Shown: positions 21,854 through 56,500 of the stretch, one piece after another
Layout: each line of letters opens with the position of its first letter
Position numbering within the stretch: the stretch's first letter is position 1
Position numbers and translations under genes: made by a program
NCBI GenBank assembly: GCA_050084515.1
Contig: CM114271.1
Span: 30,256,001 to 30,320,000, forward strand
Direction: 5' to 3'
Length of the DNA stretch: 64,000 nt
Source of the DNA: Blasia pusilla
Lineage: Eukaryota
The notes under the pieces: generated by a model
Seen by the model: only the letters and a program-made list of their open reading frames with translations
Told to the model about the DNA's origin: nothing
Databases searched by the model: none

Positions 21854-21855
21854 CA

Positions 21856-21867
21856 TGGTATCAAAGC
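21856..21867 (+). promoter_or_regulatory. Primer-binding site complementary to initiator tRNA-Met
   Basis: TGGTATCAAAGC, 2 nt after the LTR end; one mismatch to the canonical TGGTATCAGAGC. Confidence 0.85.
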
Positions 21868-28540: not shown

Positions 28541-28615
28541 AGAGACACAGGGAGATAGCGAGAGCGAGAGAGGGAGAGAGAGAGAGAGAGAGGGATAGAG
28601 GGATAGAGGGATAGA
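28541..28615. repeat. GA-rich microsatellite just upstream of the MCM5 fragment
   Basis: Imperfect (GA)n run ending about 10 nt before ATG 28625. Confidence 0.8.
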
Positions 28616-28624
28616 GTTTGAAAG

Positions 28625-32846: not shown

Positions 32847-35800
32847 CCAGTTGCCACATGTCAAGAAGAGAGGTGTTTGCAAATCAAGAAGGCACTCTCC
32901 CATAATAATATAGATTATATAATTAAAAGTGAAGCATTCTTCCACATCTGCTAATTAAATTATAAGTTAATTTTGATTAATGAAATTATTTCACATTGAT
33001 TTTCCTTTCCCAAAATATCAAATGTAATTTTTTTTAAGTAAGCATATTTTTAATTTCAAAATTTAAGACAAGTAAATGTGATTTTGAGAAAAAAAATTAT
33101 CTTGAAGAACTTTGGAGATCAAATTTTTCTTTCCACATATCCTCTTGATTGTTTCAAATTCGGATTTTCCTTCTAACTACATGAAGATTTAGATTTCCCT
33201 TAATACTTAATGAAAGAAAATTTAGAATTTAGTTGCCTAGAATAGGGAAGAGGAGTTTAAACCATAGTGTACTTCTTTAGCCCCCATAGTATGAAAATAT
33301 TTTCTTGCTATTTGAATACTATATGTCAATCAAACACATGACATTGTTTGAAAATAGAGAAGGGGTTCTACCATAAAAACCATAGACTAGTGTTCATGGC
33401 CGTGCCAATCACTCGGCATCTAGGAGTGCTACAAAGGCACTTCTTTCCAGCTCGCACGGTTCTCTACGACCTTTACTTGCCGTGCCGAGCACACCAAGTA
33501 AAGGTCTCTACAACCTTTACTGAATGCTCATAATGTTGAGGTAGTGGAATTTAGTATGAATGAATTGATGTGTGACCAAAGGACACAAGGACCAACTATG
33601 AGTTGAACAAAAAGAGGGAGTAATGCAAAGTAGTACTCGGCTGCCCGTGCTCTGCACTGGGCACCAAACAATATTATTGTCCAGATAGTAGCAGTACATG
33701 CTGGAGCATGGAGCATGTGATAGGACTCGAAGGGCTCCCTAAAAAGTGTCCATGAGGTAATTTTGTGTGTTATGAGGAAAAGACAAGAAAGTGTAACCAA
33801 ACCAAGGACACTTGGCAGCCATTTCCAAATTTAACTCCTCCAATGACCAAACCCAATCCATGTTTTCACTTTGGGCAATCCTATCATTAGTGACATTCAT
33901 CTCGTGTTTATACACACGACTTTGCCACCTCTTTCCCCACGTTTGTACCTGTAACAGATGATGATTATAAATTCTTAAAGTATCACAACCCATCCTCGGG
34001 GCTCGGAAGTACGATGAAGACTGGGAAGATGCCCAATATAATGGGCATCTTCCTAGTCTATTAGAACATAGATGGTACTTTGAAGCCATCCTACTCAATA
34101 CTTTAGATACTTTAGGCACTCTTGTTGAAAAAGCTCCCATATGATTCCATGGAGGATCGCGTTGCAACAACCGTTTCCAAGTCCTGCCATTGTGTCCAAG
34201 TTTCCAAGTACAACCATGAAAACTTCGTTCGAGAAAGCCATGAGATCGATTCTGCAAAAAGTGCAGTCTAGAGGCAAAGAGGGAAGAAAATTGGTATTGG
34301 AGAGGGTTCTTTTACGATGGGGATCGGAGGACGGCAGTAGGGAGAAACGGTCTCATGGCGATGATCGCCTCCTCAAGCTGCGCTCCCTGATGTGCTGTTT
34401 GACAAATAGGAGTGTCTCCAGTTTCCAGATTCAGATGATCAGTTCCTGGCCCCGAAATGTTTGGGAGGAAAATGAAATGCAATGCAACGCTTACTTGAGA
34501 TGTCGACACGCCAACAGATCCCTGGCAGTGTATGGCCTGGAGCTTGAACAGCTACTCCTCGCTCCCACTCCAATTCGATCGTGGGTTCCGCATGAACTAC
34601 TCTTGCGCTCTAATCTTAGGCTCCAGCGATCGTTTCCCGTCAAGCTGTAGGCGCAGGATGGCGGTGTATGTGCGTGTGTGCACTCAAGCGGCCATAGAAA
34701 CAACGGCCACAAACACCCATAAACATAAACCTTCAACACGAATCTTGAGACCACTAGATCGAACCATCTAGGAGTATTCCGATCCTAGACCCCAAATACA
34801 GGGAATGATTAAAAGAGGGCAAGAGAGAAGAAGCTCTAGGAAGTGCTTGTACGCTGGAGAGATCGAGCAGGTGTAAGTAGAGTGCAACAACACCCATCAT
34901 CCTTCAGCGGACATGGAACTAGAATCTACCGATCCGATGCACAGAACAAGACGCACAAAGCATGAATCTTACACCCCGAGCCACCATTCATCAAGTGATG
35001 TTCATCGCTGTCTGGCAGTCGACAACGAATCTGCAGATACCGAGTAGTCTGGAAACAGAAGTAAAGGTGACAACCTATGTAACACTGCTGTTCACGATCA
35101 AGGAACTCTCGACTCATTGACCGCACCGTTTGCAGAATTGAACGATCGTTTGTAGAAGGGTCGATTGACTTACTGGCGGCCATGTCGAGTCGATTCGAAA
35201 GTAGTGAGGCTACCTTGGAGTTGCACCTGTGGGAGGGATAATAGGTCGTGTGTTATATCCGAATTTCGACCTTCAGCGGAGAGACCATGATGTCCCCGGT
35301 GATGACCAAGCTCCATGGATCCCAACTTCACGAAGATCCCAGGACCGAACTCAAGATGGAACAAGTCAGCACAGTCAGTCGGCTTGAGTTCGTCCAAGGA
35401 TGGAAAGGAAACCTGCTTTCGGCAGACAGATCCATGCAGCCCAGTTCGGAAGAAATGAAGGATAGATCATGAAATGAGGCACCTCACCAAAACGGTGTTG
35501 GTTTACATGCCCACTTCAAACTAGGATCTGTCAATTTCAGGCCAAACTAGAACGAGCAGTACGTGATTTTAATGCAAATCTCGCTTAGGTGGCAAAACGA
35601 ATTAGTTCTGTTGAACTGGTGAAGTGACTTTCATTCCAGCAACTCCTAGGAACAATCGAACTGTAAAGAGAGACCTACACAGGTGACCAAAAACAGATAA
35701 ATCTCCACAAGAACGGAGAACCATCTTCTTGTATTCACGAAAGACGGACTAAAACTGCAAAGCCTACTCACATGTGCAGCAACTGTAGTCCCTTATTATT

Positions 35801-39431: not shown

Positions 39432-41172
39432 GGACAGATCGGCCGTGCCGCAATTCCTCCGCTCAAACCCAAGCCTACGGAGCGATCCCCATCAATCGCG
39501 AAGCGCTTCCGATCACGCCATGCAATCACGCAGCACCTCCTGCTCCTGCCGGAGCTCACAAGTCCTGTGTTGGGAATTCATCGCCGCCCAGATACAGACG
39601 GACTCGCGGGCACCATCTCTGGGGAGGAGGATCGAGTCCACTAGCTGCACTCCAGTCCGTTCCCATCCAATCCACAGCCGCATCAACAGGACTGCATTGA
39701 AAAGCAGCTCTGGAATGGGCCCGGACTGACTAACGCAACAACCTGAAATTCGACTGACTGACGCAAAATTCTGAAAATTCGAAGATGTGTTCCCATCGAC
39801 GGCATCGGCACACAGCCCTGAGAACAATCGAGGGCTCGCTCTCTTTCCAAGTACGACATCATCGTTTCTCGTCTGCTCGCTTGTCGTCCACCGCAATAGA
39901 ACGCGTTTGCGTTTCGTAACTCGTTTGCACTTTTTGTGTGACTTTCGTTCCTTCTCATTTCTCTCTACCAATTCCAAACGGAAGCTCAAAATCGACCACA
40001 AGGTTATAGGACTTTCTCTTCTCCGTTCTTTGAGCTTTATGAAGGCCGTGAATGATCTACGAGGGAGGATGGAACAAATCATCGGCTGCATAAATTATGT
40101 TATGGATGGCTAGTTTGCGCATGCATGTCAAACACTCTAAACTCTCGACCCAAATGTACTAACCAATCCAAGCATTTTTATTCAAAATATGTGCAATAAA
40201 AAAACTTGTTCCATGTTAAAATAAAATTTCATGTTTCTCTAAAAAAACCAAATCTACTCTAACAAGATATAAGGTTATTCTTGGCTAGTGAACATTAGTT
40301 CATTTGTTTTATGCAAAAGAAACTCAACCAAGGGAAAATGAATTTTCAAGGGAGTGAACATCACAATTCATTGGTCTTATGTTAAAGAGACTCAACAAAG
40401 AGAAAACCCTCTCCCTAGGGCAAGTGGGCCATATCCTTGACCCTAAACATGTAAAAGTGGATCAATGTTCACGTTACATAATCAAAAAGTCAGATTTTTT
40501 GAGAAAAGGAACTTTTCTCAAATAATTCGTTCTAAATGGGCCCAACCCAAGAGAAACTCTATATCTTCAAGCTAACCTACTCCTCAAACATGTCACCTTT
40601 TGATCTATTGGTCTCCATCTCCGGTCTCTCTCGGATCACTGCGGGAATACTCTCTAGTTTGCTACAAAAGAGGTGACAATTGTCATGTGAATGCATAACA
40701 TACATTGTTTTGACTAATCAAACACAAAGAATCACCTATCTGACACATCCGACCATGGAGTTCAAACACAAAGGCAAGTAGCTACCAAGATATCTCCAAT
40801 CCCCTCCCCCTAGTTGGTGATTAGGGCCCTTCGGGATGATCTCCCAATGTCATGCGATGGTCAATCAGTATCTAATCATATAGGTCGCTATTCTATTTAT
40901 GTCCTATTGTGTATGGATGTCGGAATGTTATGATGGCAAGGGATTGTTGGAAATATGATCCCAACAATAGGTGAGCGATCCTATTGTTTAAGAGTGCCAA
41001 GTAGAAACTTATGTCCTTTACTCCCATCTATATCTTCTTCCATATTTTATTCTATATATTATATAGAATAATTCTCAATATCTCAATAACAAACACTTAT
41101 GTATCTGACTCTTGTCCTTTTAGATGCCCTCTAGCTACGTCACCTATTCCTTAGATCTAGCTTTGTTTCCTC

Positions 41173-41540
41173 TGTCATGACCATACGGATTATGTCGTAG
41201 AGTATAGTGTGCTAGTAGAGGCCATACCTTATGTAGGGCCGTAGTGTCTAGGTAGAGATGCGGTTTCATACATAGGGTTGGGGATTACTTAGTTAAGGAT
41301 GACTTTTCCAGTAGGGCCCGCTCTTAGGTTGGAGAATATAGTGTGGAGTGCACTCAAAGAACAATTAGTTCTTTGAGTTGAGCCTGTTGCGTTGGGAGTT
41401 AGCCTTGGTAGTGAGTAGAGCTCTTGGCTATGGTGGTTCCCGCAAGCTTCGACCTGGATTCTCCCATCGTGAAGAGGGTTTGGCTCGATTGTATGTGAAT
41501 GTATACGTGTTTTATGACAGTAGGTCTTTCACGGATTTCA
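41173..41540 (+). repeat. Repeat A1 (368 bp), left terminus
   Basis: Direct repeat of 50474-50841, with about a dozen mismatches by eye. Confidence 0.95.
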
Positions 41541-43025
41541 CTCAAATAACTCGGGTAGCTTTGATTGTGGATCAGTAGGATCTGGTTTGGGCTGATTGTG
41601 TACTCAGCCGTGGATGTTTGTGGCTTGTGGCCTATGTTGGAGATGGTAATCTGGTGCATGGTTGGTTGGGAAAGAAGCGCCATGCTGAGAGCTTTCCAAA
41701 GCACTTTAGATCGCCGGAGTTCGTCAAGGGAGTTGGAAGTTATCAAGGATTGAAGATTCTGGTTCGTGTTCGACGGTTTTCTGATGTGGAGAGCTTGGAG
41801 TGCTGAAGCTCTGTTGAAGTTCATCCAGATCGGGTGAGAGGTTCCTATTGCTAATTGTATTGTGATCTCATGTGAAGCTATCTGCTTGAGTGTGTGGAGC
41901 GTTGCGGATTTCTGCGTGCATGAATCTAGGCGGAAGCGTTGTCGGATTTGCGATTCTGGAGGTGTATGGACAGCAAGTTTGTCTGATTTTTAGCTCAGAG
42001 TACAAAGCTCGGTTGTAGCTGATTTTTTGTGGAGAGATAGCTCTGATGGTCAATTAAATTCTGGTTGAAACAGATTAAATTTTGGTTGAGTATTTGTGGA
42101 GTAATTTCTGATCAAAATTTCATGATGGTGGACAGCAGATCGGAGGGGCTGGTTGGTTGGTGACTCGTCCGATGTTGGAGACACCTATCCCGTTGGGGGC
42201 GCCCTGGTTGGACCTCTCTCCATAGCGAAGCATGGCAAAGCGTGGCAAACGGGGCATGTCTCGAGCATTTCTCGGCGTTTTGAGGCTTCGAGGCAACTCG
42301 TGGTAGCTCGGGGTGAGTGGGCGTGAGAGGCGGAGTAAGGAGCAAGCAAGCAAGCTTGCTTGCTTGGGCGTGAGGTAGTGTTTGGAGGATTTGTGATTTG
42401 AGTGTTGCATAATTGGTCATCTATCTTTGGGCTATTCTGCCTGGAAGACTCTTAACTGCTGAGTTCTTAACTATGCCAATGTACACACTAGTGTAGCTCA
42501 TTTGGTGGTGTTCGGAGATGTGTTAGGCGCTTTATGCATCTCAGATTTTTGGTTGATAGACCTCTAGCGCATAGTATGGTGTAGCCTCTCCATGCAGGTG
42601 ATATTTTCAGATGCTACGGGTCCAACTAGCACGTCATCGACCCGCGGCAGAGTAGCTATTGCGTTAGAATTGTATGGTGGTTTCTGTGGATTCAAGGGGC
42701 GCCACATTTGGTGGATTGTGTTACCTTGATTTCCATTTGCGATTGGAGGGTTGTCGTTGGACTTCCTGTGTTTGGATCCCCTCCATCGTTGCTTCTTGCT
42801 TGCGCGCCCATTGTTAGGGTTGACGCTGATTTCCAAAGTAGTGTTACTCCTGTGTGCTACCGGTAGTGAGGCTAGAGTGATGACCAGTAGACCGTGGGAG
42901 GCTTCTTGTGGTGATGACAGGTTAGGTTGCCTACACCCATAGCTAGTAGAGCTAGAATAGTACAGCCACATCGACGTCACTTGGCTACTTAGTGGTGGTA
43001 ATTTGGTGGTGGTGCGGCATCGGCG

Positions 43026-45590
43026 TTGGTCATCACGGAGCTCTCTGGTGGTCTGGTTGGGGACGGTGGTACGGACAGTGGTGGTTTCACACGGAGTGGA
43101 TTGAGGTATCGGCTATCTTTTCCACTTCCAACGGTTGATGAAGAGGAGGACGAGGGTGTTCCAAACACTGAGTCTTCTACGTTGTTATCGAGTGTTGCAT
43201 CTCCATTGATTTGGGACATGGATGGGATATATGGGGCCATGAAGGGCCCACGACGATACTCGAGTGCAGTGGGCACCATTGAGTTGGAGGACTTCATGCA
43301 GGAGTTTGATACGTGGTGTGATATGCAGATGTTGCGGAACGTCACGTTGTTTACACCTTTCTTGGCTTGGAAGGGGTTGTTTCAGCACTTGGAGGGACCA
43401 CCCATGGATGATTACCATGAGTTTAGGAAGGACCATGTTGCTGAGATTGAGGTGTGGAGACAATATTGGTCTCCAGGCTATGTGTCTATCACCCATGGTG
43501 GTATTGGTAGTAGTGCTCCTACTATGCCAGCCAGCCCGACGTTGAGTGGTACGAGTACGAGCCGGAGTGGGGGTACCAGTGGAGGTACCCATGGAGGTAC
43601 CAGTGGGGGTACTAGTGCCCCACCATCGTTCAGCCCGGTTGCAGAGTTCTTCAAGAGGTTGAAGAAGAACTATCACTGAGTGAAGACAAAGAAGTTGAGG
43701 AGCCTTTAGGAATTTGAGCGAAAGACTGGTGAGAGTCTTCGTGAGGCATACACTCGTATGCGACGCTTGATTTCAGTTACCCAGGGTGTGACTGAGGCTC
43801 AGGCAGTCCAGTTTTGGTATGGGATCTTGGACGGAGAGTTGCGCCGGAGGGTACTCTTATGAGTGATGATTCACCTACATTGACCCATGTGTTTGCTCTA
43901 TCTGAGAAGATTGAGCTTAACATGGTGAAGGAGAGAGTGGTGACATCCGCATTCAGTAGGGATATAACTACTACTTCTTGTGTTCAGCAGCCCACCTCAC
44001 AATCTCGTAGTAGTGGTGGTGGTAGTAGTAGTGGGAGTCGTGGGGGGTACACACGACCTCAGTCAAGTCCTAGAGGGACACTTGCGTAGAGACCATTGCC
44101 TTTATTTGCTGCCCCGCAGCAAGAACAGTCATGATGGACATGTGGAGGTGATCATGTTAGGAGGTTTTGTCCCCAAGAGGATGGGAGACGGACTTTGGAG
44201 GATGGGCCTCAGTCGGCCCCAACTCAGTGTGATCATTGCGGGAGACCAGGTCATCCTCGAGAGCGTTGCTTTGATCTTCATCCAGAGTTGAGGTCACGCC
44301 GTGGCCGTGGTGGAGTAGCTCCGAGAGGCCGAGGTGGTAGGGGTGGTAGAGGTGGACCAGTGGTTGGAGAGCCTACGGTGGCCACCCCTACCACTCTGAC
44401 AAGTCGACCTATGGTTGCCGAGATTGAGCTTGATTGGAGAAGAAGTTGGCTACTATGGCTGGTATCGAGCATAAATGAGGTTTGGGAGCAGGGGCTTCCA
44501 TTTCCTATGGAGGGGATGATCTCTCTTATATGGCAAGTGCAGCACAGGTTGAGGCATTAGCTGCAGTTACGAGAGGAGCCACTCGAGCGTTAGAGCCACG
44601 TGGTGCTATTGTGGAGTTGGACCCACAGAGGGGTGAGGCTGGGAGGCAGGCTAGGCTTGCCCAGTCATTCTTGTTGTCTGAGGTGCTTAGGACTCCATCC
44701 ATGGTTCTTACGCAGCCTATTGAGCGGCGAGTGGGGATCGAGGCATCTACATCGCGTGTAGTAGACACGGATGCAAAGACATCGATCAAGATTGCGGATG
44801 GCAACTTAAGTGTTGGGATCCCCATTGTTTTCGGCCACGGAGCTGATGGCTTTAGGAGTTGACTTAGCTCCTGCATTTCAGCTAGCAGCCACGTTGTATG
44901 AACATGGGGTGTATTCTTGCTACGTCTTTGAGGTGGATGAGGGTGTTGCGGTGAAGCGACCCTCTATGTCAGTGTAGCATTGAGTACGGTGCTACTTGGC
45001 AAAGCGGCGGCGAAGATGGATGCATTACCAGCCCGGCCAGCCATTGATCGTGAGAGGCTTACACCTGGTGTATGTATGTTGGACAACCGGAGTGGGATAT
45101 CCGATTGGTGAGTCCTACAGGATAGGTGTATAGCCCAGATAGAGTCTTGTTAGACTCTGGTGCCCAACCTTTGATGTTGGGAAAGGCAGCATGTATTGGT
45201 TTGGGTATTCGGAGGTCAGAGCTTAAGCCTTGCCCATTCCAGATTCAAACATCACTTGGATGAGCCAATGATAGGTCTTAATTCATGACACGGGAGAAGT
45301 TGTCTGTACAGTTGAGACCAGATCAAGCGACTGATAGCTCCCGGTTGGGAGTACCTGCAGTGGTCACATCAGCCGAGTCATATGATGTACTAGTTAGAGG
45401 AGCAATATTGTACCCGATGGGTTTTCAGATGGACTACTGGAGTGAGACAACGTCTTATAGACCTGGTTGGCAGTCCGGGGATGGACGTATGAGCCAGGTT
45501 CCTGTGAGATTTATTTATGGGGCTCGACATAGAGGGTCTTCCCCAACGGTGTTAGCATCTGTGGTTGGTTTTAGTGGAGTAGTCACCTGA
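43026..45590 (+). pseudogene. Gag and aspartic protease region of the split-repeat element, disrupted
   Basis: Gag-like ORFs (ELEDFMQEFDTWC; GESLREAYTRMRRL), one degenerate and one intact CCHC knuckle, an RG-rich tail, protease RVLLDSGAQP and downstream YDVLVRG. Contains stops and frameshifts. Confidence 0.75.
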
Positions 45591-45881
45591 CCAGGAGACT
45601 TTTTGGAGGGTAATCTTTCTGCTATGGATTCTCCAATGCATGAGGAGGTAGAGGAGGTCCCTAGTTTTGTAGCAGTGGCATCCTCATCGTTGGATGTGCC
45701 ACTTTGGAGTTCAGGCGGTGCACTACGGCAAGAGGCTGATCGCCTAGTGCCGGAGGCTTGGTGTGAGGTTGTTATACCTCATGAGGAAGAGGAGGCCCCA
45801 CGGCGGACTCCTACTTCTGGTCTAGTTGGGTTATCCCCTTTGGATACTACACCCATTGTATGGCAGTATCCGCCGGAGGGC

Positions 45882-46830
45882 ATTTGTGTGTTAGATCTCT
45901 TTGGTGGGATAAGCATTGGTTTGGCTGCAGTGTTGCAGATCGGTATTCATGTGCGGAGATACGTGTATGTGGACCCAGATGAGACGGCCCAGAGAGTCTC
46001 ATCCCGACATATCGGTCAGTTGATGCGGAGATATCCTGAGTTGTTGCCGCCATCAGCTATTCGTGGGTACCAACATGCTTTGCCGTCACACATTGCATTG
46101 TTGGGGGCGCAGGACCTTGAGAGGGTTGGTCTTGTGGATTTGGTGATTGCTGGATGGCTATGTCACGCTCATACACGTGTTGGTCGTGGTGAGGGATTAT
46201 ACGACCCTAGTTCTCGATTATTTTGGGAGATGTTACGGGTGTTACGACATCTTCAGGTTCATTAGGCACGTGCTCCAGCTTACATTCCGGAGAATGTTCC
46301 ATTGTTGGGTGACACTCGGACCCGGATGATGGCGAGTGTTCATGAGGTACGGTCTTGGATTGGACCAGCGGTATTTTTGGATGTGCACGCGAGTTGGCTC
46401 GCGTGCACATCGTCTATGCTTGTGGTGGACAAACTTGTTGCCTAGGGAAGTTCTACGTCAAGCATATGATGCACTGCAGCGAGATCCTTGCCTTACAGTG
46501 GATAGTATCTTGGATACTGGGCCACTTTCTCAGGTGGTGTGGTTATTGATCGGTCACCCATGGCAGTGGTGAACCGTGTGGGCCAGCCTAGGATGGCACT
46601 ACCCACATTTGTGAGTTTTCCCTCGTCACATGCCTACAAGGAAGGTGGTCCCAAGTTTGTATGGGATTCTCATGTGCGACAGTTGGTGGAGCCTAACGCT
46701 GATGAGAGAGAGCGTGCGATGGGATTTGCTACTGGTGTGACAGCGGTTGCTTCCATTTCTGAGGCTTCACGACGTCACCTATTGGGTCAGGCCATGGACC
46801 TGAATTGTTTGACTTGGATTTTGAGTCTTG
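45882..46830 (+). pseudogene. Element-borne C5 cytosine DNA methyltransferase domain (DNMT3-like), disrupted in this copy
   Basis: Motifs in canonical order: I VLDLFGG (45888), IV DLVIAGWLC (catalytic Cys at 46161, preceded by CTA where Pro is expected), VI ENV (46290), VIII GSRAHRLCLWWTNL, IX ERERAMGF (46704), X RRHLLGQAM (46770). One in-frame stop at 46263, plus frameshifts. Confidence 0.88.
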
Positions 46831-47081
46831 GTATGGCCGAGCAGCGTCGATTTCGGACTATGTCTGTGGGTCTTCCACCCCTTGTGATGAGCTCGATGGC
46901 TACCGGGACGGTAGAGGCATCGGCTGGGGATGAGGAGAGTAGTATTTTGCATCCTTGGAGTAAATGGGATGTAATGGCTGGGCATGTGGAGTTGGTTGCT
47001 CATGCTGGTGGAGGAGTTATTTTCTCAGATGATGGTATAGCTAAGGGTGTACCATCTTGTGAGGGGGTTGCGTAGCAGCCA

Positions 47082-50000
47082 ATGGCGTCGTCATCTCCCT
47101 CTAGTGTGTCAGTGGAGGAGACTTGGGAGCCATTACTTGGGCCCAAGCTTACGGGAGGTGAGAAACGACGCTTGACACAGTTCCTACGTACTTATAGGAG
47201 TTATTTTGCCTTTAGCATGAAGGAGTTGGGTGCTTTGGTTGGACCCGGTATACGGATTGATTTGGCTAGTGATACGCCAATCTTTCGTCGTCCCTACCGA
47301 TATAGTGATATGGAGAGGGACGTGATTCAGAGTAGGACGTTGGACCTTTTGGAGGCTGGATTAGTGGAGTTGTCGCATGGAGAGTATGCATCAGCCACTA
47401 TCATGCCTGCTAAAAAGGATGTGCATGGCAACTACACGGATAGGCGGATGTATGGAGATTATCGTCCTATCAATCGGCAGACCAAGGCTGATAGGTATGC
47501 CATGCCTACACCTGAGGAGATCTTTGATGTGGTGGGACAGGCAAAGATTTTTAGTACTTTGGATCTTCGGGCAGGATACCATCATTTGCCGATTAGAGAG
47601 AGTGACAAGGCCAAGACAGCATTTTGGGGTGTCAACTCTCATGGCAAGGATTGTTTGTACCAATGGAAATTCTTACCCTTTGGGTTGAACAATGCACCTG
47701 TCGAGTTTCAGAGAGTGATGGACAGGATCCTAGTAGGGTTGGATTTTGTTCGGTGTTACATTGATGATATATTGGTGTTTAGTAACATGGTGGAGGAGCA
47801 TCCGATACATTTTCAGATTGTGTTTGAGCAGTTGAAAGCTCATGGTCTACGTTTGCATCCAGGAAAGTGTTAGTTCTTCCATGAGGATGTTGAGTACTTG
47901 GGTCATGTGATCTATCCAAGTGGTTTGGGATTTTAGCAAGCAAAGGTGGAGGCTATTGCACTTATTCCTTGTCCGGTAGATGTGAGTAGAGTTCGGGCAT
48001 TCATGGGATTGGCGAACTACTATCGGAGGTATGTGAAGGGATTTAGTGCTATGGCAAAGCCTTTGAACCAATTGTTGAAATCAGATCAGGAGTGGCACTG
48101 GGGAGATAATCAGGAGAGAGCTTTTGTGGAGCTCAAGGCCCAGTTGGTGGCGGCGCCTATCTTGAGGAGACCTATCAGAAGGCGCCCATTTCAGTTACAC
48201 ACTGATTGGAGTAGGTTGGGACTTGGAGCGGTGTTGACACAACATGATGATGAGCACATGGAGTTTGTGGTGGCCTATGCAAGTCGTTCGAATAATGCAG
48301 CGGAGTCGCGCTATAGTTCATATGAGGGAGAGTGCTTGGCAGTAGTGTGGGTTGTGGCACACTTTAGGTGTTACTTGTTTGGCACACAGTTTACCCTTGT
48401 TATTGATCACCAGCCGCTCAAATGGTTGATGGAGTCTGACAAGCTTACAGAGAAGCTTGCACGGTGGGCTCTTATCTTACAAGAGTATGACTTCCAGGTG
48501 GTACATAGACCTGGAGTTGCCAACCTTGATGCTGATGGGTTGAGTAGGAACCAATGTACTAGCCAAGAGGATGCAACAGGGGCTAGATGGCATGACGAGG
48601 TTGATGAGGAGATGGTGCCAGGTTGGCATGCATCTGCCTTTTTATGTTGGTTAGGGGTGGACTCTAGTATGGAGGACCACATGATATCTTACTCTAGTCA
48701 GAGGGTAGATGGCCAGCCTTCAGATCCTAAGGTTGGAGATGGTAGTACGGATCAGCGTGACATTCATGATGATGCGTTGGTGTTGGAGCTCGTACGGACC
48801 AGTAGGGTGCCAAGCATAGTGAGTGCCAAGGAGCGAGACCGTGTTCTTCAACGTGCTAAGAGGTATCGATTGGAGGGAACACATATTCTCCGTGTGTGGG
48901 ATGATGGTAGAGTACGAGTAGTGCCGCATTTGGCTCAGAGTGAGCGCATTGTGTGACATGCCCATGAGGAGTTGGGACATTTTGGGGTAAAGCGTACGTA
49001 TAGCTTACTCCTTGGTGAGTATTGGTGGCGTGGCATACATACTCAGGTGCAGCAGTTGGTGTCACGTTGTATGGTTTGAGACTGGGTGAGGGCATCATTC
49101 AATGCCCCTACACCACAGTTACACCCCTTGCCTATTATGGGGTTGGGTTACCGTTGGAGTGTGGACTTTGCGGGACCGTTACGTGGATTGGTATGCGACA
49201 TCATCGATATGTATTGGTGATGGTGGAGCACTTCTCCAAGTGGATTGAGTTGGTGGCATTACCTAATAAGGCAAGTGAGGGAACGGCGTATGCGTTTCTT
49301 GATAGAGTTCTTAGTCATTTTGGTGCACCAGCTGAAGTGCTGACCGACCAGGGTACATAGTTTCAGGGTGAGTTTCAGGTCTTGTGTGACAAGGCGTTGA
49401 TTGATCATCAGACCACGTCTCGAGATCATCCAGAGGCGGATGGTTTGGTTGAGCGTGTGGTTTAGACGGTGAAGAGGGCATTGCACAAGTATGGCCTATA
49501 GAAGGAGCATCTTGGAGACTGAGATATTCAGTTGCTATGGTTAGCCATGGGGTATAGGTTCAGTCAAGGATGCTTGACTTCCTTCTCACCTTATTTTTTG
49601 TTATACGGCCGAGATCCAGACTTGCCCGCAAAACTTTGTTGGGAGTCTAGTGAGGTAGTGAACCTTGATGACCCAGAGATGAGGATGAGAGTGTGTTCTC
49701 AGCGGGCAAAGCTCTTTCGGAGAGTTATGCCAATAGCCTTTGAGAATCTTGCCATACTCAACACAGGGATACGTTGCGATATGCAACCATTCGGGGTGGA
49801 GGTTATCGACCATAGATTCGTAGGTTCCATGTGGGGGACTATGTCTATTTGCAGCAGATTGCACCGACAACGTTGGATGTGACGGCAAGCCGCACTATTT
49901 TATGAGTGCGAGAGGTGTTAGCTTTTGGAGTTCTCATGTTGGAGGGTCGCGATGGAGTTTTTTGGAAGGACCATGTGCGTAATTGTGCGTCATGTCATAT

Positions 50001-50199
50001 TCCAAATGCGGATGGTACTGTTGACCCAAGTTTAGCCATGATACGTGCTAGCTTGAGGTGCATGTTGTGTAGGTCTGCTCGTAACGCAGCCCGTATGTTT
50101 GTGTGTGATCGGTGTTCTAGGGGTTGGCACATGATGTATTTGACTCCACGTATGGATGTTGTTCCTATTGGAAGATGGGTTTGTCCTCGATGTACTTAG
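47082..50199 (+). pseudogene. RT, RNase H, DDE integrase and C-terminal PHD finger of the split-repeat element
   Basis: Motifs DYRPIN, FSTLDLRAGY, LPFGL, YIDD, TDWS, YASR, DHQPL, integrase HHCC and D,D,E, and PHD CMLC...CDRC....H..Y...WVCPRC at 50059-50193. Confidence 0.9.
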
Positions 50200-50369
50200 G
50201 AGAGTTAGATGACTTGATCTTTGCATGATATGGATTACAGATGTGCGACTAACGATGGGGCAACCTAGCACCCGGCCTTCTGATTCGTGCACCCATGAAG
50301 GTGTATAGCATGTAGTAGATGTATAGGGCTACTTGGAGGGACCTAACCGCCAGTTAGAAGGGCGAGTTT

Positions 50370-50471
50370 TGGTACACTTGTGTTTGTGTATGCTCTCGTC
50401 TATGTTATGTATGTATGTGAGTATGGTATGTCAGCAATGTATGTTGTATGACAATGTGGATTCGCAAGACA
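50370..50471 (+). repeat. Repeat B1 (102 bp)
   Basis: Direct repeat of 50846-50947; ends in CA. Confidence 0.95.
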
Positions 50472-50473
50472 GC

Positions 50474-50841
50474 TGTCATGACCATACGGATTATGTCGTA
50501 GAGTATAGTCTGCTAATAGAGGCCATACCTTATGTAGGGCCGTAGTGTCTAGGTAGAGATGCGGTTTCATACATAGGGTTGGGGGTTACTTAGTTGAGGG
50601 TGACTTTTCCAGTAAGGCCCGCTCTTAGGTTGGAGAATATAGTGTGGAGTGCACTCAAAGAACAGTTAGTTCTTTGAGTTGAGCCTATTGCGTTGGGAGT
50701 TAGCCTTGGTCGTGAGTAGAGCTCTTGGCTATGGTGGTTCCCGCAAGCTTCGACCTGGATTCTCCCATCGAGGAGTGGGTTTGGCTCGATTGTATGTGAA
50801 TGTATACGTGTTTTATGACAGTAGGTCTTTCACGGATTTCA
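50474..50841 (+). repeat. Repeat A2 (368 bp)
   Basis: Direct repeat of 41173-41540; starts TGTCATG, 2 nt after B1. Confidence 0.95.
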
Positions 50842-50845
50842 GTGG

Positions 50846-50947
50846 TGGTACACTTGTGTTTGTGTATGCTCTCGTCTATGTTATGTATGTATGTGAGTAT
50901 GGTATGTCAACGATGTATATTGTATGACGATGTGGATTCGCACGACA
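50846..50947 (+). repeat. Repeat B2 (102 bp), right terminus
   Basis: Direct repeat of 50370-50471; ends CACGACA and is followed by the TSD. Confidence 0.95.
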
Positions 50948-52577
50948 CCTCTAACTAGCTTGGAAAATGGTGCAAAGAGAAGGACTCGGTGCTCTTCTTT
51001 CACCTGTGCACGGCACGATCACTAACTAGTCTGGCAAAATCTATCTAAAGTAGAGAAAGGGTGTAGGGAGAAGGAGAAGGGATGCAAGAAGAAGGACTCT
51101 TCCTAACCGGTGTGAGATTGCTCACGTATTTTTTTCAAGCATGTGAACATCAAAACATATTTACCTTCAGACACCAACTTGTCGTATAGATTGCAGAAAC
51201 TGTCTTTCGTCATTGTAACCTTACTACTTGGCCCGTGACGCTTGGGTTTCTTCGTGTATGTAATTTCATGAATGGGTTTGGCCTGTGATGTTTGGATTTT
51301 GGCATTGTAGAGTAACTTTTGAAGGTAAATATGTTTTGATTTTCACCTACTTGTCACACATATTAACTTTGTGACGTAGTCTTAAAAGTTTATCTCCCTA
51401 GATGTGAATATGACTTGCTATGTTCGTTCTTGACCAATAGGATCACAAGTGTGGACTTGGGATCTCATTGGAAATGCCTCACTTATTTTTAGTTGTATAG
51501 TGCTCAGTTCTCTGTCCCCGTGTTTGTAGCGGCCATCCGATACAGACCTTTTTACATGTGTGTTACTTATGATAATATATTCGTATCAAAGTTTGTGCTC
51601 TGAAGCGCTACCTCGTAGTTCCCCTTCAAGTCTCTTAGAGTGCAAGGGTACAACATAGCACTCCTCCAGTACTAGGGTTACTATGTGGTACTACTTCAGA
51701 CAAAGTACCCTTTGAGAGTCTCTATGAGTATTAGGTGTCACGTATGCAGTACCCTATTACTACTTCATTTTAAATTTCTACAAGCATTAATTTATTTGGT
51801 TTATAGAAGGCTGAGTCACCCTACTATGTGCCCTTTTTAGCCTCTTATACGAGCCTACATCATTGTGGCGGGCTTATGTACATTACAATTAAACCCGAAT
51901 GTGAAAGTTCAAGCCAAGGGAATATATGGTGAAGTATGTTAGGGCAAGGAATATAATACACACACGTTGTTGTCATTTCCTCTTCTAGAATTAGAGATAC
52001 TATGCAGTCTGGACGTCATCCTTATCATGTGCATTCAGGATGACATTATTGGAAGTTTGAGTTTAATTTCCGGGATTTGTGAGGACGAGAGCTGATGTGG
52101 AGCGTTGTCCATTCCGGATACAGACATCCTTGGGTGGAGCGAGTACCACACAAAGGGAAGAGAGTCCTAACACTCAATAGAACTTCAGATCAAATCGGAT
52201 GGTGTTAGTGAATTCTTGTGGCCTAAATGTGTCTAAAACATCTCTTTATTTGCATTGAAGTCCACTATAGACCACAAAAACACGTGCCCAAGAACAGACC
52301 AGACAGTGTGCAGAAGTCCACATTCCATTTATATAAGGTTAGTTTGGAACTTGTAAGTTAAACACCTCGCATAATATAAACATACAATGTCAATGCGATT
52401 CGTTCATGCTGAGAGTTTGCATTGATCAATAGAGAGCTAGCATTCTGATCAAATTTCATCAAGAGTTAGGTTTTCTAATGTTATGAATGCATTCATTACG
52501 ATTTCTTGAGTGGCAATGAAGTGAATCAATCCACAATCATGGTTAAGAAGGAGATTCTTACCCGGAAAAAGGTTATA

Positions 52578-53539
52578 TGTCGTGCACCTACTCTCTTTGA
52601 ACGTCAATCTCTAGTGTTGAGGAAGCATACATTCAATAGGAAATGCTCGCACTATTGATCTGCACCCAAACACACTCACGTTAGTCTGGTATGGATCAAT
52701 CTACCTTCCAACCCACCGAGTTCTCAACTCAGTCATACATCAAGTTGAACCTCCCCTCATTCCTAGCTTCCCAACACGGGAAAGTCTTTCGAGACTTGGG
52801 ACAAAATTTGTGGTTAATCTAGACACGTAAAACGGCATTTGCGCGCCTAGCGATCCCAATTATCCAATGGACCTCGTATGAGCCCCAAACCTAAAAGCAA
52901 GTAAATGAGTTGCGGGATGGAATCTAATAGGGACCTCCGAAAACCACTCTATTGGACTTGGTTCACGTTTCGAGTCCCAACATCAAACTCCTGATCCATT
53001 CTGTGCCCTTGAGTCGCCCCGTGGCGCCCCAAATTGGGGTTTGAGTCCCAAGCACCCTTGGAGACCTTACTAGTATTTTTGGGGATTCCCGCCCTCCCCC
53101 TACCTTTGGGGAAGAGACCTTCGGGCTCCTCTTTTTGGCCCTCAACCCGACTCCCTATACAATAATTTTTGGCCAATATCTCAGCCTTTGTTTATTCATT
53201 TACTAATATCTTTCATTTTTTTGAAGTGACTTTACATAAGCTTTCCAATGCCACCTTATTAGTCCCAAATGCATCTTGGGACTAAAAGTTATGATCCAAA
53301 ATACAGTCAAAATCCTAAACGCTAGTCACGTTCCAAATCCGGTTCTCACTTCTTTGGCAACCAACCTTCCTAGACTCGACTCCTCTCAAGTCTTGGTTTA
53401 TGTTTGGTCGAGGTTTCCTAGTTGCAAACATAAACGCATGAAATGCTCAACCTTGTTCGTGTCTCATCTTTTGTGTCTCTTGCATGTCTTCCAAGAGATC
53501 ACTCCAAGGCGCAAACCATTCTAGGGTGAGCCCGCTAGA
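52578..53539 (-). repeat. Diverged solo LTR related to the 20880-21853 LTR, inverted
   Basis: The reverse complement aligns with the LTR at both ends and internally (GCTGAGATATTGGCCAAAAAT; GAGTAGGTGCACGACA). No clear TSD. Confidence 0.8.
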
Positions 53540-56500
53540 GTCATGATGTTACGCTTGCCGCTCGTTTGGTTATGAGGGTTGCAAAATTTTAGGCGCTATG
53601 ATTAGAGACCAAGGAGTTCCTTTCAATTTAAATTCCGTATAGGCCATTTTTTGAGATTATGGGATGAACTTTAGAGTTTCGGCTCAAGGAGTGTACAAAA
53701 TAAGACTCAGTGTAAAACTTGCAAGGAAGGAGAGCGCACTTCTAGATTGGATGCGATTAATAGGATGTGGTATCATTGCTAATGATACGTACTTGATGCT
53801 TCACCTTTTAGACGTCGATAATGAAGAAAACTATCATGTTGATGTTACCTAGTTGGTTGTTTATGGACCTAGATTGAATTATGGAGTTGAAAGTCTTTCC
53901 AAAATTATCCAAAAGCTAGTTTTCAGAGGTCCAACTTCATCAGACATTCAACATATTTCTATGTTTTTTAGAGAGATCATTTGGGTAGTTATTGGGATTC
54001 CTACCGTTGATTTTACCTTAGCAATTATGCTACGAGAAGACACAAAGGTAGAGCAAATTGGTTTAGGGAAAGAGACGACAATTGCTCATCTAGCAAAGGT
54101 TGTAGACTCTGCTTTAGAGTTTGGATTTGTTGTCATTGTCTAGGAGAACAAAGCTTGATGCAAGGGGGACCCAACTATTGATTGAGTTTGGGAAGCCCGC
54201 AAACAACAGGTTGTGGGAAGAGTTGGAGGATCTTTACATTCCAAACTCAGTCTCCACTTTGAAAATCTTTCGCTTGGAAGTGAACGATTTCAAACTCGCC
54301 CCTCTTGACATTAAAGCAAGGATCTTTATTAGGAGAGAGTGAATGCATTGATGCACAATCTCTCGGGGACGAGAAACATCATTGTAAGAAATACAAACAA
54401 TGGTATTGTTGTCGTGTGTACATACGATCTTTCTAGAGCCTTGGATGAATATCAAAGACGATTTTTTCAGAAGTCTCCCGTGTATAGTAGTATGGGGGGG
54501 AAGATTGTCCCGAGAACCCGCTTAGTTATTTCAGCCTCTCATCCCTTCACAATCAAGTGGACCCATGCGCCAACAAGATGGAGACTTTGATAAGGATGCA
54601 GAAAGCCACTTCCGGGCACACATGACCACCATTGAGTTGGCAGCAATTAAGAAGATCGGGAAGAGGAAGATTCGAGAAGTGGTGGGTAACATTTCCTTTG
54701 ATTCAGGATTGCTATTGTAGTACTATTAAAATTGAATTAAGAAATTTTTTTGAACTTGAGTTCTCATCAGCTATTTTGGTCCTAGCCACAAGGAGATCAA
54801 CAAGTCCTTATACAATTGCTCTTCCGCCACATGGAATATGTAGCATGCTATGATGTTTGCATACGAGGAAGGTAAACTCACAACACAAGTTGGTCTTATG
54901 TACTCCAAGTACAGACATAAGACTAGCGTTGAGAATAGGTGATTGAAGAAGACCAACTTGAGACCACTGCAGGGGCTTGGCAGAGACATGCAATGTGGTT
55001 CAAGTTGTAGAAGAACTCTTGAAATTAAGGGTGCAAATAAGGCCAACATCTGCTCGCAAACTACAAAATGAAGACTTGATCGACCTGAAATCCTATTGTG
55101 ATAAATGGAAATGCAAACAAGTCAATGTAGGCGCCATTTATAAATTCTTCTTATCGGAGAGGGAATTCACTACCGAGAGAAGTTGTCAGGATTACTTTGA
55201 CGAGCTCGTTTTGCAATAAGACTTCTTTGTCAATGATGCCCAAATTCTCCTTGATATTCTGCTGGAGGAGAAGATGTATTTGAAGAAGCATCTCTCTTTG
55301 GCACACAAGCCAAATTTGGTCTTCCTCTAGAAGAATTCAACAAGACTTTGTGGAAATTAATCAATTTGCAGAGGGCCAACAAGCCAAGATACGACTTTCT
55401 TGTGTCTACATACAAGGAAGTTACTGCTAGTCTTGATATAACCTTCCCGGGATTTTTCTGGACTATTGTATGTACGAAGGTAGTAGGCAATGATTGGGGT
55501 CTCTTTTACGACATCATATTTTCAAATATGGTTACCACGTCGGATGATTAGAAACGACATAGCATTGAAGATTTTGAAGAATGTTTTGGCAAAGGATGTC
55601 GCCTTAATGCAAAAGAAAGATTGTTGGTGTTTTTCACAAAACACTATGGAATTTATAGTAGCTTGCTAAAGAGCATCAAATCTTTGGTTTAGAGTAATTC
55701 CTTATATAGTCAAATCCAAAGAGACAAAAGATCCAAAGTGGAGGATGTTTGATGATTGTCATCGTAGTATTTAGCAATGGTTTTGATTAGTCTACTCAAG
55801 ACCAACAAGTAGCCACTCTAAATAGAGTACTTGGCAAAAAAGTTCTTCCAACGTCCTTAAGCGACGCAAGGATTATGATCAACGAGGAGTATAGATTCCT
55901 TCCAATCCTCAAGGAGAATGAGTTTTGAATGGGTGACCCGGTGGAGATTTTCAGAGGGTTGTCCAAGGTTGGATCGCGGAAGAATGCCATCATGATCAAT
56001 CTAAGTTTCCATGTATTGGAAACTTTATTGGTGAGTTGCTCTTTTGGAACTAAAGTTGTGATATTCCCTTTTCATGGTCATGATGGTATGATGTATTGGG
56101 GCCTATGTCTAACTATGGCTGATTTCCACAATCAAGACAACGAATTCAAAGGGAGGAGTGAAGGTCATGAAGTGAGTTCCTTGCATCTATATTATTATTG
56201 GAGAGTGTTTTTTTATTTGCAAACACCTCTTTACTTGTGGCAACCCCGTAGAAAGAAAATGTTTCCTCTTTTAAGGGCAGAAAAAAAAATTTCCCTCTTT
56301 AACTCCCGTAGATGGCACTTATCCCAACTAGTATGACATCGACCCCTCATTTTACACGAGAGAATAGTGGTTAGGCAACTCCTGGTTTGTCTAGCCACTC
56401 TGCCCAAATTATCTCCACACCACACAGGTGGGAGAAAATACCTTAACAACAAGAACCGAGAGCGGGGCCAATCCGGAAATGGTGGAGGTAATGTCGTCCG

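What the first reader, a model, noticed from the sequence alone, without database searches (positions are those of the whole stretch)
45882..46830. DNMT3-like cytosine methyltransferase embedded in pol between protease and RT
Seen: C5-MTase motifs I, IV, VI, VIII, IX and X in non-permuted order, without introns, on the pol strand. AHR..WWTNL, ERAMGF and R.LLG resemble DNMT3 (AHRARYFWGNL, ERVFGF, RLLGRSW), not the permuted DRM type. Known, from memory: DNMT-carrying retrotransposons have been reported in dinoflagellates and charophyte algae and are not typical of land plants. Inference: active relatives could methylate their own cDNA or insertion sites to evade or manipulate host silencing. This copy is disrupted.
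Basis: partly seen in the sequence, partly recalled or inferred. Interest (0 to 1): 0.88.

Follow-up and report, generated by a model that had tools for sequence, protein, structure and literature searches.

The report
Dead retrotransposon carrying DNMT3-like methyltransferase
This is a decayed copy of a jumping gene that carries its own DNA-methylating enzyme, a kind first described in an alga and here found to be common in liverworts and mosses.

Summary
Window 45882-46830 (+) encodes a non-permuted C5 cytosine methyltransferase domain with motifs I, IV, VI, VIII, IX and X in order and no introns. It lies inside a 9.8-kb Ty3/gypsy-type element (41173-50947).

This copy is dead. The domain has one stop, two frameshifts and a mutated motif IV (GWLCH; relatives have GWPCQ). 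The window pieces alone fail Pfam (E 0.17). Relatives pass PF00145 (6 of 8 tested). These come from Marchantia, Riccia, Calypogeia, Sphagnum, Closterium, Mesostigma and two chlorophytes.

The family profile matches DNMT3A far better than anything else solved (7e-23; next is DRM at 1e-11). A predicted structure matches only DNMT3A/B/C among the listed hits.

Distant copies give dN/dS 0.18-0.33, and the catalytic residues are invariant. Related copies are transcribed in sense.

New details:
- The domain ends ORF1 (gag-protease-methyltransferase), ahead of an in-frame stop kept in 45 of 51 loci.
- Integrase carries a PHD finger.
- The termini are A-coding-B-A-B, as reported for KnitGypsy-Dnmt3 of Klebsormidium.

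Verdict: a new (bryophyte) member of the known Gypsy-DNMT3 kind. Its function, self-methylation of cDNA, is inferred and untested.

The parts
41169..41172 (.). left copy of the 4-bp target-site duplication CCTC
   Evidence: same 4 bases at 50948-50951
41173..41540 (+). terminal repeat A1 (368 bp, TG...CA)
   Evidence: blastn to 50474-50841, 96.7%; 12 differences in 368; ends read
43218..47072 (+). remains of ORF1: gag (two CCHC knuckles at 44135-44170 and 44228-44269), aspartic protease (LLDSGAQ at 45147-45167) and methyltransferase; broken by stops and by frame changes near 43811-43853, 44290-44434 and 45099
   Evidence: tblastn of P0006 collinear over 43218-47057; motif places
45882..46830 (+). 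DNMT3-like C5 cytosine methyltransferase domain (the finding): motif I 45891-45923, IV 46149-46166, VI 46284-46301, VIII 46399-46437, IX 46704-46727, X 46779-46805
   Evidence: relatives pass PF00145; profile and fold match DNMT3A
46263..46265 (+). premature TAG inside the methyltransferase; related transcripts read C at 46263
   Evidence: (30 of 30, 23 of 23 and 43 of 43 reads in the three RNA runs)
46382..46384 (+). first frameshift in the domain (frame 0 to +1), about two residues lost
   Evidence: alignment of window pieces to intact relatives
46533..46536 (+). second frameshift in the domain (+1 back to 0), about three residues lost
47073..47075 (+). in-frame TAG between methyltransferase and RT, conserved in the family (candidate read-through stop)
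   Evidence: 45 of 51 loci have TAG (31) or TAA (14) at the aligned place; six stored proteins (five from Marchantia, one metagenome protein) end there
47076..50199 (+). remains of ORF2: RT (47076-47873), RNase H (47937-48956), integrase (48735-49756; rve core 49019-49360) and PHD finger (about 50059-50193); frame changes near 49185-49196 and 49756, and 10 stops
   Evidence: Pfam RVT_1 2.8e-25, RT_RNaseH 7.9e-36, rve 7.1e-09, PHD 2.9e-08; tblastn frames and stops
50356..50362 (+). purine run AGAAGGG just upstream of repeat B1 (polypurine-tract-like)
   Evidence: AGGGGGG at the same place in L077 and L054
50365..50473 (+). repeat B1
   Evidence: 95% identical to 50846-50947 over 102 nt
50474..50841 (+). 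terminal repeat A2
50842..50947 (+). repeat B2, right end of the element (ends ...CA)
50948..50951 (.). right copy of the target-site duplication CCTC

Best explanation
The region is the methyltransferase domain of a dead copy of a Ty3/gypsy-type retrotransposon (41173-50947). It belongs to a bryophyte branch of the Gypsy-DNMT3 kind first described as KnitGypsy-Dnmt3 in Klebsormidium.

In intact family members the element reads A-[gag-protease-DNMT3-like methyltransferase]-stop-[RT-RNaseH-integrase-PHD]-B-A-B.

Shown here:
- The domain is a non-permuted C5 methyltransferase, closest to DNMT3.
- It is a fixed part of the family, and its catalytic residues are kept under purifying selection.
- Related copies are transcribed in sense.
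- This copy is broken and cannot make an enzyme.

Inferred:
- The enzyme is made as the tail of the Gag-protease polyprotein, upstream of a read-through stop. It would therefore be made in Gag-like amounts.
- It enters the particle and methylates the element's new cDNA, or DNA at the insertion site, so that the element sets its own epigenetic state.
For: Identity and anatomy:
- Collinear tblastn to Marchantia P0006.
- 38 relatives at 45-76% identity, 30 of 38 with precomputed PF00145. PF00145 is above the cut-off in 6 of 8 relatives scanned.
- Window Pfam hits: RT, RNase H, rve, PHD.

DNMT3 affinity:
- phmmer of P0006: DNMT3A 1.7e-8, HaeIII 1e-3.
- Profile A3: DNMT3A 7e-23 (84 bits), DNMT3C 6.8e-21, DNMT3B about 1e-20, tobacco DRM 1.1e-11, HhaI 1.6e-9, DNMT2 2.2e-8. 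No DNMT1 or chromomethylase at E up to 1.
- AlphaFold model: pLDDT 86.5, pTM 0.86. Every Foldseek row listed, to rank 49, is DNMT3A/B/C; the best has E 1.2e-19 and TM 0.84.

Constraint:
- In 15 domains at 34-76% identity these are invariant: Cys and Gln of PCQ, Glu of ENV, both Arg of motif VIII, Asn of TNL, Glu and Gly of motif IX, and Gly of motif X.
- NG86 dN/dS falls from 0.84 (dS below 0.1) to 0.31-0.33 (dS 0.8-1.5) and 0.18 (dS above 1.5).
- Window against loci, median values: methyltransferase 0.31 (n=63), RT 0.14 (n=41), RNase H 0.17 (n=31).

ORF structure: a stop at the aligned place in 45 of 51 loci, and protein ends at the same place.

Termini: B-A-B in 4 of 7 copies that have an A pair. 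Four-base target duplications in the window and L077. The figure legend in PMC5890265 gives A-coding-B-A-B for the algal element.

Transcription: 1582-1891 reads per RNA run, all 30 bins covered, mostly one orientation.
Against: - The window's own pieces do not reach the Pfam threshold.
- No K. nitens sequence was seen in any list, so kinship with KnitGypsy-Dnmt3 rests on shared architecture, shared repeat layout and host range, not on a tree.
- No tree with DNMT1, CMT, DRM, DNMT5 or bacterial enzymes was built.
- dN/dS for the methyltransferase is about twice that of RT and RNase H, so it is the less constrained domain.
- Only 2 of 80 metagenome copies have an unbroken domain.
- B-A-B was not found in 3 of the 7 copies with an A pair (L062, L045, L016).
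- Catalysis is untested here. In the published yeast assay the algal domain gave no detectable methylation, which the authors call inconclusive (PMC5890265).
- Read-through of the stop is inferred from conservation alone.
- RNA reads are 95-99% alike, so they come from other copies. The RNA strand assumes the usual stranded library.
Confidence: 0.85

Rival explanations
1. The bryophyte elements captured a DNMT3-type domain on their own, separately from the Klebsormidium elements. They would be a convergent look-alike rather than the same lineage.
For: Captures are known to recur: two SymbioDIRS structures, plus the Gypsy capture, in PMC5890265. The domain sits in two different places in this superfamily: before RT in 16 stored proteins and after RNase H in 76, of 248 with the domain. 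No K. nitens protein appeared.
Against: The repeat layout A-coding-B-A-B is unusual for an integrase element and is shared with the algal element. The same domain family occurs in Mesostigma, Closterium, liverworts and mosses, which brackets Klebsormidium in the plant tree (recalled). Architecture is clustered on the domain tree: one clade of 76 rows (support 97) holds all 74 RT-before-MT rows.
Confidence: 0.15
2. The domain is kept for a role that needs no methyl transfer, such as DNA binding or tethering of the pre-integration complex, or it methylates RNA.
For: The algal domain gave no methylation in yeast (PMC5890265). Several family members have Glu or Gln in place of the Pro of PCQ. Its dN/dS is higher than that of RT.
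Against: The catalytic Cys, the ENV Glu and the RxR pair are invariant in 15 of 15 diverse domains. The match to DNMT2 (the tRNA enzyme) is far weaker than to DNMT3A: 2.2e-8 against 7e-23. SymbioDIRS-Dnmt3 domains methylate CG de novo in yeast (PMC5890265).
Confidence: 0.12
3. A host DNMT3 gene or pseudogene merely lies next to, or nested in, this one retrotransposon copy, so the fusion is an accident of this locus.
For: None beyond the fact that the window holds several nested or adjacent elements.
Against: The same order gag-protease-methyltransferase-stop-RT occurs in Marchantia proteins and in 51 metagenome loci with an alignment across the junction. There are no introns. No PWWP or ADD domain appears in the relatives scanned.
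Confidence: 0.01

Closest known systems
KnitGypsy-Dnmt3 of Klebsormidium nitens (de Mendoza et al. 2018, PMC5890265; section 9 and other passages read)
   Same: An LTR Gypsy-type Pol with an intronless, non-rearranged Dnmt3-type domain. Purifying selection on that domain. Repeats laid out A-coding-B-A-B.
   Different: The host is a land-plant (bryophyte) lineage rather than a charophyte alga. Here I also see a conserved in-frame stop between the methyltransferase and RT, and a PHD finger after integrase. The paper's text has no occurrence of 'PHD', and its figure and supplements were not visible. No sequence-level comparison was possible.
Animal DNMT3A/3B/3C catalytic domains (solved structures)
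   Same: Motif order; the best sequence-profile match; the best fold match, with 322-351 aligned columns in the listed rows and TM up to 0.84 on the target.
   Different: About 19-24% identity. No PWWP or ADD reader domains. Embedded in a retrotransposon polyprotein. The segment between motifs VIII and IX is somewhat longer.
SymbioDIRS-Dnmt3 of Symbiodinium (PMC5890265)
   Same: A Dnmt3-type domain inside Pol, and A-coding-B-A-B repeats.
   Different: Those elements use a tyrosine recombinase and belong to DIRS. This one has a DDE integrase (rve). A Symbiodinium kawagutii protein matches the family profile only weakly (1.3e-9, 29% identity).
Chromoviruses (Ty3/gypsy with a chromodomain after integrase)
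   Same: Ty3/gypsy domain order, with a chromatin-reader module at the integrase C-terminus.
EpiLTRs (bioRxiv 10.64898/2026.05.21.726589; passages read)
   Same: LTR elements that carry a cytosine methyltransferase together with a chromatin reader.
   Different: According to that preprint, their DNMT is sister to DNMT4 and is appended at the 3' end of pol together with a Dam-type adenine methylase. It is a distinct capture.

Membership tests
C-5 cytosine DNA methyltransferase (Pfam PF00145) | Profile hit above the curated cut-off (22 bits) | tested here: inconclusive
   The window pieces give 11.8 bits, E 0.17, which fails. Relatives at 60-76% identity pass in 6 of 8 scanned, at 27.7-46.5 bits; P0019 and P0035 have no hit. 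Met for the family but not for the decayed copy itself.
C-5 cytosine DNA methyltransferase (Pfam PF00145) | Catalytic residues: Cys of motif IV (PCQ), Glu of ENV, Arg-x-Arg of motif VIII | tested here: met
   Invariant in 15 of 15 diverse family domains. In the window, Cys, ENV and RxR remain, but Pro is Leu and Gln is His in motif IV.
DNMT3 family | Motifs in the unpermuted order I-X, unlike DRM | tested here: met
   Order along the window. A single collinear alignment to DNMT3A residues 9-270. DRM matches only in two separate stretches.
DNMT3 family | Closer to DNMT3 than to any other C5 methyltransferase class | tested here: met
   Among solved chains: DNMT3A 84 bits, DRM 47.5, HhaI 40, DNMT2 37, and no DNMT1 or CMT. 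Foldseek top rows are all DNMT3. This is similarity ranking, not a phylogeny.
DNMT3 family | Placement inside the DNMT3 clade in a tree with DNMT1/MET1, CMT, DRM, DNMT5 and bacterial enzymes | not tested
   No reference sequences could be brought in. Only the best 150 of 6207 hits are listed, and the word-based searches returned none.
DNMT3 family | PWWP and ADD reader domains N-terminal of the catalytic domain (host-type architecture) | tested here: not met
   No such Pfam hit in the 12 relatives scanned. The domain is DNMT3-like in its catalytic part only.
Gypsy-DNMT3 retrotransposons (KnitGypsy-Dnmt3) | Gypsy-type Pol (protease, RT, RNase H, DDE integrase) with a Dnmt3-type domain in the polyprotein | tested here: met
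Gypsy-DNMT3 retrotransposons (KnitGypsy-Dnmt3) | Repeat layout A-coding-B-A-B | tested here: met
   Seen in the window, L077, L054 and L055, that is 4 of 7 copies with an A pair. B-x-B at the 3' end also in L015, L059 and L050.
Gypsy-DNMT3 retrotransposons (KnitGypsy-Dnmt3) | Sequence kinship with the K. nitens elements | not testable with these tools
   No K. nitens sequence was returned, and the paper's supplements are closed.
Ty3/gypsy (Metaviridae) | Domain order RT-RNase H-integrase, and LTR ends TG...CA with a short target duplication | tested here: met
   Order. TG...CA ends and a 4-bp duplication in the window and L077, imperfect in L054. The right end is B2, not a second LTR, which is atypical.
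DIRS-like elements | Tyrosine recombinase instead of a DDE integrase | tested here: not met
   rve and Integrase_H2C2 were found, and no phage-integrase hit.
Chromoviruses | Chromodomain at the integrase C-terminus | tested here: not met
   A PHD finger instead.

The most novel reading that the evidence does not exclude
A single old lineage of integrase-bearing elements runs through green plants, from chlorophytes and early streptophyte algae to liverworts and mosses. It has split-direct-repeat termini, a DNMT3-type methyltransferase and a PHD reader, and it is still transcribed in a living bryophyte. In the streptophyte branch the methyltransferase was moved into the Gag-protease frame, ahead of a read-through stop. 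It is therefore made and packaged in Gag-like amounts and methylates the element's own cDNA before or at integration. This would be a retrotransposon writing its own epigenetic mark in land plants.
Probability: 0.3. Interest if true: 0.7.

Novelty: new member of a known kind. Interest (0 to 1): 0.5.

Why it matters
Retrotransposons that carry a cytosine methyltransferase turn the usual picture around, because the host's silencing mark is written by the element itself. So far they are documented in dinoflagellates and one charophyte alga. The 2026 literature I could search still cites only 'streptophytes (Gypsy-DNMT3)' from the 2018 paper.

Finding the family as multi-copy and transcribed in liverworts and mosses would place it in land plants. 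Marchantia is genetically tractable (recalled, not from any call) and has annotated family members with a complete methyltransferase domain. That makes the open question directly testable: what does the element gain from its own methyltransferase?

It also warns annotators. Some 'DNA (cytosine-5)-methyltransferase' gene models in bryophyte genomes are retrotransposon frames, and some of them have invented introns that skip the conserved stop.

Tried and rejected
- Pfam on the window's own pieces: no significant methyltransferase hit. Settled through relatives.
- The genome search 'own': no genome is held for this window, so copy number in the source genome was not measured.
Repeated with A2.
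- Protein Atlas: the first hit was a streptophyte PF00145 cluster, and the next two were phage clusters at the same score. No use for classification.
- Looking for K. nitens or host DNMT3, DRM, CMT or MET1 sequences in three word-based searches and one exhaustive search: none listed. The class-level tree was therefore dropped.
- A first dN/dS script failed on a record name and was rerun. 452 saturated pairs were dropped before the medians.
- The look-up of sequencing runs: no RNA holder listed among the indexed runs. Raw RNA runs of the same species label were laid instead.
- A tRNA-type primer-binding site directly after A1: none evident; the sequence there does not start with TGG.
- Literature searches for any paper naming liverwort, Marchantia or bryophyte retrotransposon DNMTs found none (passages). 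Supplements of PMC5890265 and PMC12344493 were closed and may list such sequences.
- A host gene accidentally next to a transposon: rejected.

Full report
**1. What is at the coordinates**

Frame-by-frame translation of 45591-47075 and motif mapping show, on the + strand and in this order:
- LDLFGGISIGL (45891-45923, motif I)
- AGWLCH (46149-46166, motif IV)
- IPENVP (46284-46301, motif VI)
- SRAHRLCLWWTNL (46399-46437, motif VIII, in the +1 frame)
- ERERAMGF (46704-46727, motif IX)
- LLGQAMDLN (46779-46805, motif X)

The motif numbers are the usual convention, recalled.

Pfam on the window's own open pieces gives only a sub-threshold DNA_methylase hit (E 0.17, 11.8 bits against a cut-off of 22). 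The identification therefore rests on relatives.

**2. Relatives**

A search with 45843-46442 (stop read as X) returned 38 proteins at 45-76% identity. Of these, 30 carry a precomputed PF00145 hit. They include many Marchantia polymorpha proteins and proteins of Calypogeia fissa and Sphagnum. My own Pfam scan found DNA_methylase above the cut-off in 6 of 8 relatives; P0019 and P0035 had none.

tblastn of the Marchantia protein P0006 (gag-protease-methyltransferase, 1278 aa) is collinear with 43218-47057 of the window. Identity is 64% over 647 columns in the protease-methyltransferase half, with no intron-like gaps. The window's three methyltransferase pieces align in order to intact relatives.

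**3. State of this copy**

Inside the domain there are four defects: TAG at 46263-46265, a frameshift near 46383, a second near 46534, and GWLCH where relatives have GWPCQ.

Across the whole element, the alignments show stops at:
- 43677, 43707, 44087, 44132, 44476, four more in the poorly aligned stretch 44860-44938, then 45123, 45261, 45279, 45588 and 46263 in ORF1
- 47871, 47934, 48954, 49077, 49358, 49463, 49499, 49520, 49813 and 49903 in ORF2

Frame changes lie near 43811-43853, 44290-44434, 45099, 46383, 46534, 49185-49196 and 49756. The three frame-0 stops at 46443-46503 lie in the out-of-frame stretch and are not counted. The two A repeats differ at 12 of 368 positions. The copy is dead.

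**4. The element**

- A1 is 41173-41540 and A2 is 50474-50841 (96.7% identical, TG...CA).
- A second repeat, B, flanks A2: B1 at 50365-50473 and B2 at 50842-50947 (95% over 102 nt).
- No B lies beside A1.
- A purine run (AGAAGGG, 50356-50362) sits just before B1. B begins with a TGG-containing stretch. The B1/A2 junction reads CA-NN-TG.
- The same four bases, CCTC, flank A1 on the left and B2 on the right.

The layout A-coding-B-A-B recurs in L077, which has a perfect AATC duplication, and in L054/L055, which may be one locus seen twice. That makes 4 of 7 copies with an A pair; it was not found in L062, L045 or L016. B-x-B with the same spacing also occurs at the 3' ends of L015, L059 and L050.

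De Mendoza et al. 2018 state in the legend of their Fig. 4c that the K. nitens Gypsy-Dnmt3 elements have 'the same' repeat structure as DIRS, that is A-coding-B-A-B, with Gypsy domain content (PMC5890265). How an integrase element copies such termini I cannot say.

**5. Reading frames**

The methyltransferase ends ORF1. The window has TAG at 47073-47075, and RT follows in the same frame. In 51 metagenome loci with one alignment across this junction, 45 have a stop at the aligned codon (TAG 31, TAA 14). The other six have TCT, TAC or GAT, and three of these align at only 34% identity.

Six stored proteins (five from Marchantia, one metagenome protein) end at the same place. Three Marchantia gene models skip it through predicted introns. 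I infer stop-codon read-through, as in some retroviruses (recalled). This is not shown.

ORF2 holds RT, RNase H, integrase and a PHD finger.

**6. Which methyltransferase**

- phmmer of P0006 against solved structures: DNMT3A 1.7e-8, DNMT3B/3C about 2e-7, HaeIII 1e-3, tobacco DRM 2.6e-3.
- A profile of 15 diverse family domains (A3): DNMT3A 7e-23 (84 bits), DNMT3C 6.8e-21, DNMT3B about 1e-20, tobacco DRM 1.1e-11 in two stretches, HhaI 1.6e-9, DNMT2 2.2e-8, Arabidopsis DRM2 1.8e-7. There was no DNMT1 or chromomethylase at E up to 1.
- An AlphaFold model of P0001 built on A3 has pLDDT 86.5 and pTM 0.86. Every Foldseek row listed, to rank 49, is DNMT3A, 3B or 3C; the best has E 1.2e-19 and TM 0.84 on the target.
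- No PWWP or ADD domain appears in the 12 relatives scanned.

The catalytic domain is DNMT3-like.

**7. Constraint**

In A3 (34-76% identity to the first row) the following are invariant: Cys and Gln of PCQ, Glu of ENV, both Arg of motif VIII, Asn of TNL, Glu and Gly of motif IX, and Gly of motif X. The Pro of PCQ varies.

Of 80 metagenome loci, only 2 have an unbroken domain by my criterion. Two more distant loci are also open.

Pairwise NG86 on 70 sequences gave 1956 pairs, after 452 saturated pairs were dropped. Median dN/dS:

| dS range | median dN/dS |
|---|---|
| below 0.1 | 0.84-0.86 |
| 0.2-0.4 | 0.55 |
| 0.8-1.5 | 0.33 |
| above 1.5 | 0.18 |

 This is the pattern expected if copies decay neutrally after insertion while the transposing lineages are under selection.

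Window against loci, median values:

| region | median dN/dS | pairs |
|---|---|---|
| methyltransferase | 0.31 | 63 |
| protease | 0.23 | 46 |
| linker | 0.18 | 63 |
| RT | 0.14 | 41 |
| RNase H | 0.17 | 31 |

These pairs are not independent. Stops and gaps were skipped, and the frames come from tblastn.

**8. Range**

The profile of the bryophyte domains, run against 1.84 billion representatives, gave 6207 hits at E up to 1e-3, 1397 at 1e-10 and 388 at 1e-30. The best 150 are all below 1e-55, and many are 1300-3456 aa polyproteins. The weak tail surely includes ordinary methyltransferases.

Named sources seen:
- Marchantia polymorpha, M. paleacea, Riccia sorocarpa, Calypogeia fissa (liverworts)
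- Sphagnum fallax, S. troendelagicum (mosses)
- Closterium sp. and Mesostigma viride (streptophyte algae)
- Scenedesmus sp. and Haematococcus lacustris (chlorophytes)
- a weak Symbiodinium match

 No vascular plant and no K. nitens protein was listed.

Two architectures exist: CCHC-methyltransferase-RT-RNaseH-integrase (P0048, like the window) and RT-RNaseH-methyltransferase-integrase-PHD (P0044, P0057). Among 248 stored proteins with the domain, 16 have it before RT, 76 after, and 156 lack RT.

On a FastTree of 116 domains, one clade of 76 rows (support 97) holds all 74 'after RT' rows, including the chlorophyte ones. The named streptophyte rows lie outside it. The root is unknown. In an IQ-TREE quick tree the window falls in a supported set of 31 rows (96) with Calypogeia, the Marchantia clade and the metagenome clade. 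Its nearest row is P0001, at 77%.

**9. Expression**

Three RNA runs carrying the same species label as the best DNA holder laid 1745, 1582 and 1891 reads on 43000-50300. All 30 bins were covered. Nearly all reads are 95-99% alike (17, 7 and 21 reads at 99% or more), so they come from related copies.

First mates lie mostly on the - strand, for example 59.8 against 1.5 in bin 46904-47147. That means + strand RNA if the library is of the usual stranded type.

At 46263 all reads read C (30 of 30, 23 of 23, 43 of 43). At 45261 all read G, and at 45279 all read C. Three of this copy's stops are therefore sense codons in the transcribed relatives. Whether those transcripts keep motif IV intact was not visible in the rows shown.

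**10. Literature**

The kind is known: KnitGypsy-Dnmt3 (PMC5890265). It is cited as 'streptophytes (Gypsy-DNMT3)' in a 2026 preprint (passages) and mentioned in PMC12344493 (passages). PMC5890265 has no occurrence of 'Marchantia' and mentions bryophytes only for the host gene.

Searches found no paper that names such elements in liverworts or mosses. Passages read do not either. Supplements were closed and may hold such sequences. About 1.7 million PMC articles are not searchable.

**11. Verdict**

It needs correcting on the frame structure and on land plants, and it remains untested on function. This is a new, land-plant member of a known kind, with several structural details not found in the text I could read.

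Noticed in passing
window 50365-50947, with 41173-41540; L077 1326-12353; L054 1972-15985: The termini are A-coding-B-A-B, with a purine run before B1, a CA-NN-TG junction between B1 and A2, and a 4-bp target duplication outside A1 and B2. This is a DIRS/Ngaro-like split direct repeat on an element that encodes a DDE integrase. I have no replication model for it.
   Followed up: partly
window 49906-50199 (PHD about 50059-50193): A PHD finger follows integrase where chromoviruses carry a chromodomain. The same Integrase-PHD tail occurs in distant relatives (P0044, P0057) and in many precomputed annotations.
   Followed up: partly
window 48720-49757: RNA reads in all three runs (12, 20 and 30 reads) join 48720 to 49757, with 39 other letters in between. 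This looks like a transcribed relative in which about 1 kb of the integrase region is replaced.
   Followed up: no
window 43000-50300: In the DNA contigs of run X1, the window has T or A where other copies have C or G about twice as often as the reverse (T>C 51 and A>G 44 places, against C>T 21 and G>A 24). That is what deamination of methylated cytosines in this copy would give.
   Followed up: no
proteins P0019, P0237, P0016 (Marchantia gene models): These models run from the methyltransferase into RT by skipping the stretch with the conserved stop, apparently through predicted introns. The database models are chimeric readings of two retrotransposon frames.
   Followed up: partly
protein P0253: A 455-aa family member on a 2.4-kb contig is labelled as a 'Candidatus Obscuribacterales' MAG protein. 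Given its 49% identity to the bryophyte domain, it is probably a mis-binned eukaryotic contig.
   Followed up: no
window 1-7801, 21187-32847, 52575-53557: Other repeat pairs in the window are 830-1604/7037-7801 at 92% and 21187-21854/32187-32847 at 88%. A different Gypsy-type RT lies at 23749-24998, about 35% identical to P0016. These suggest further LTR elements around the one studied.
   Followed up: no
alignment A3, motif IV column: Several family members have Glu or Gln instead of Pro before the catalytic Cys (GWECQ, GFECQ, GWQCQ), while Cys and Gln are invariant.
   Followed up: no
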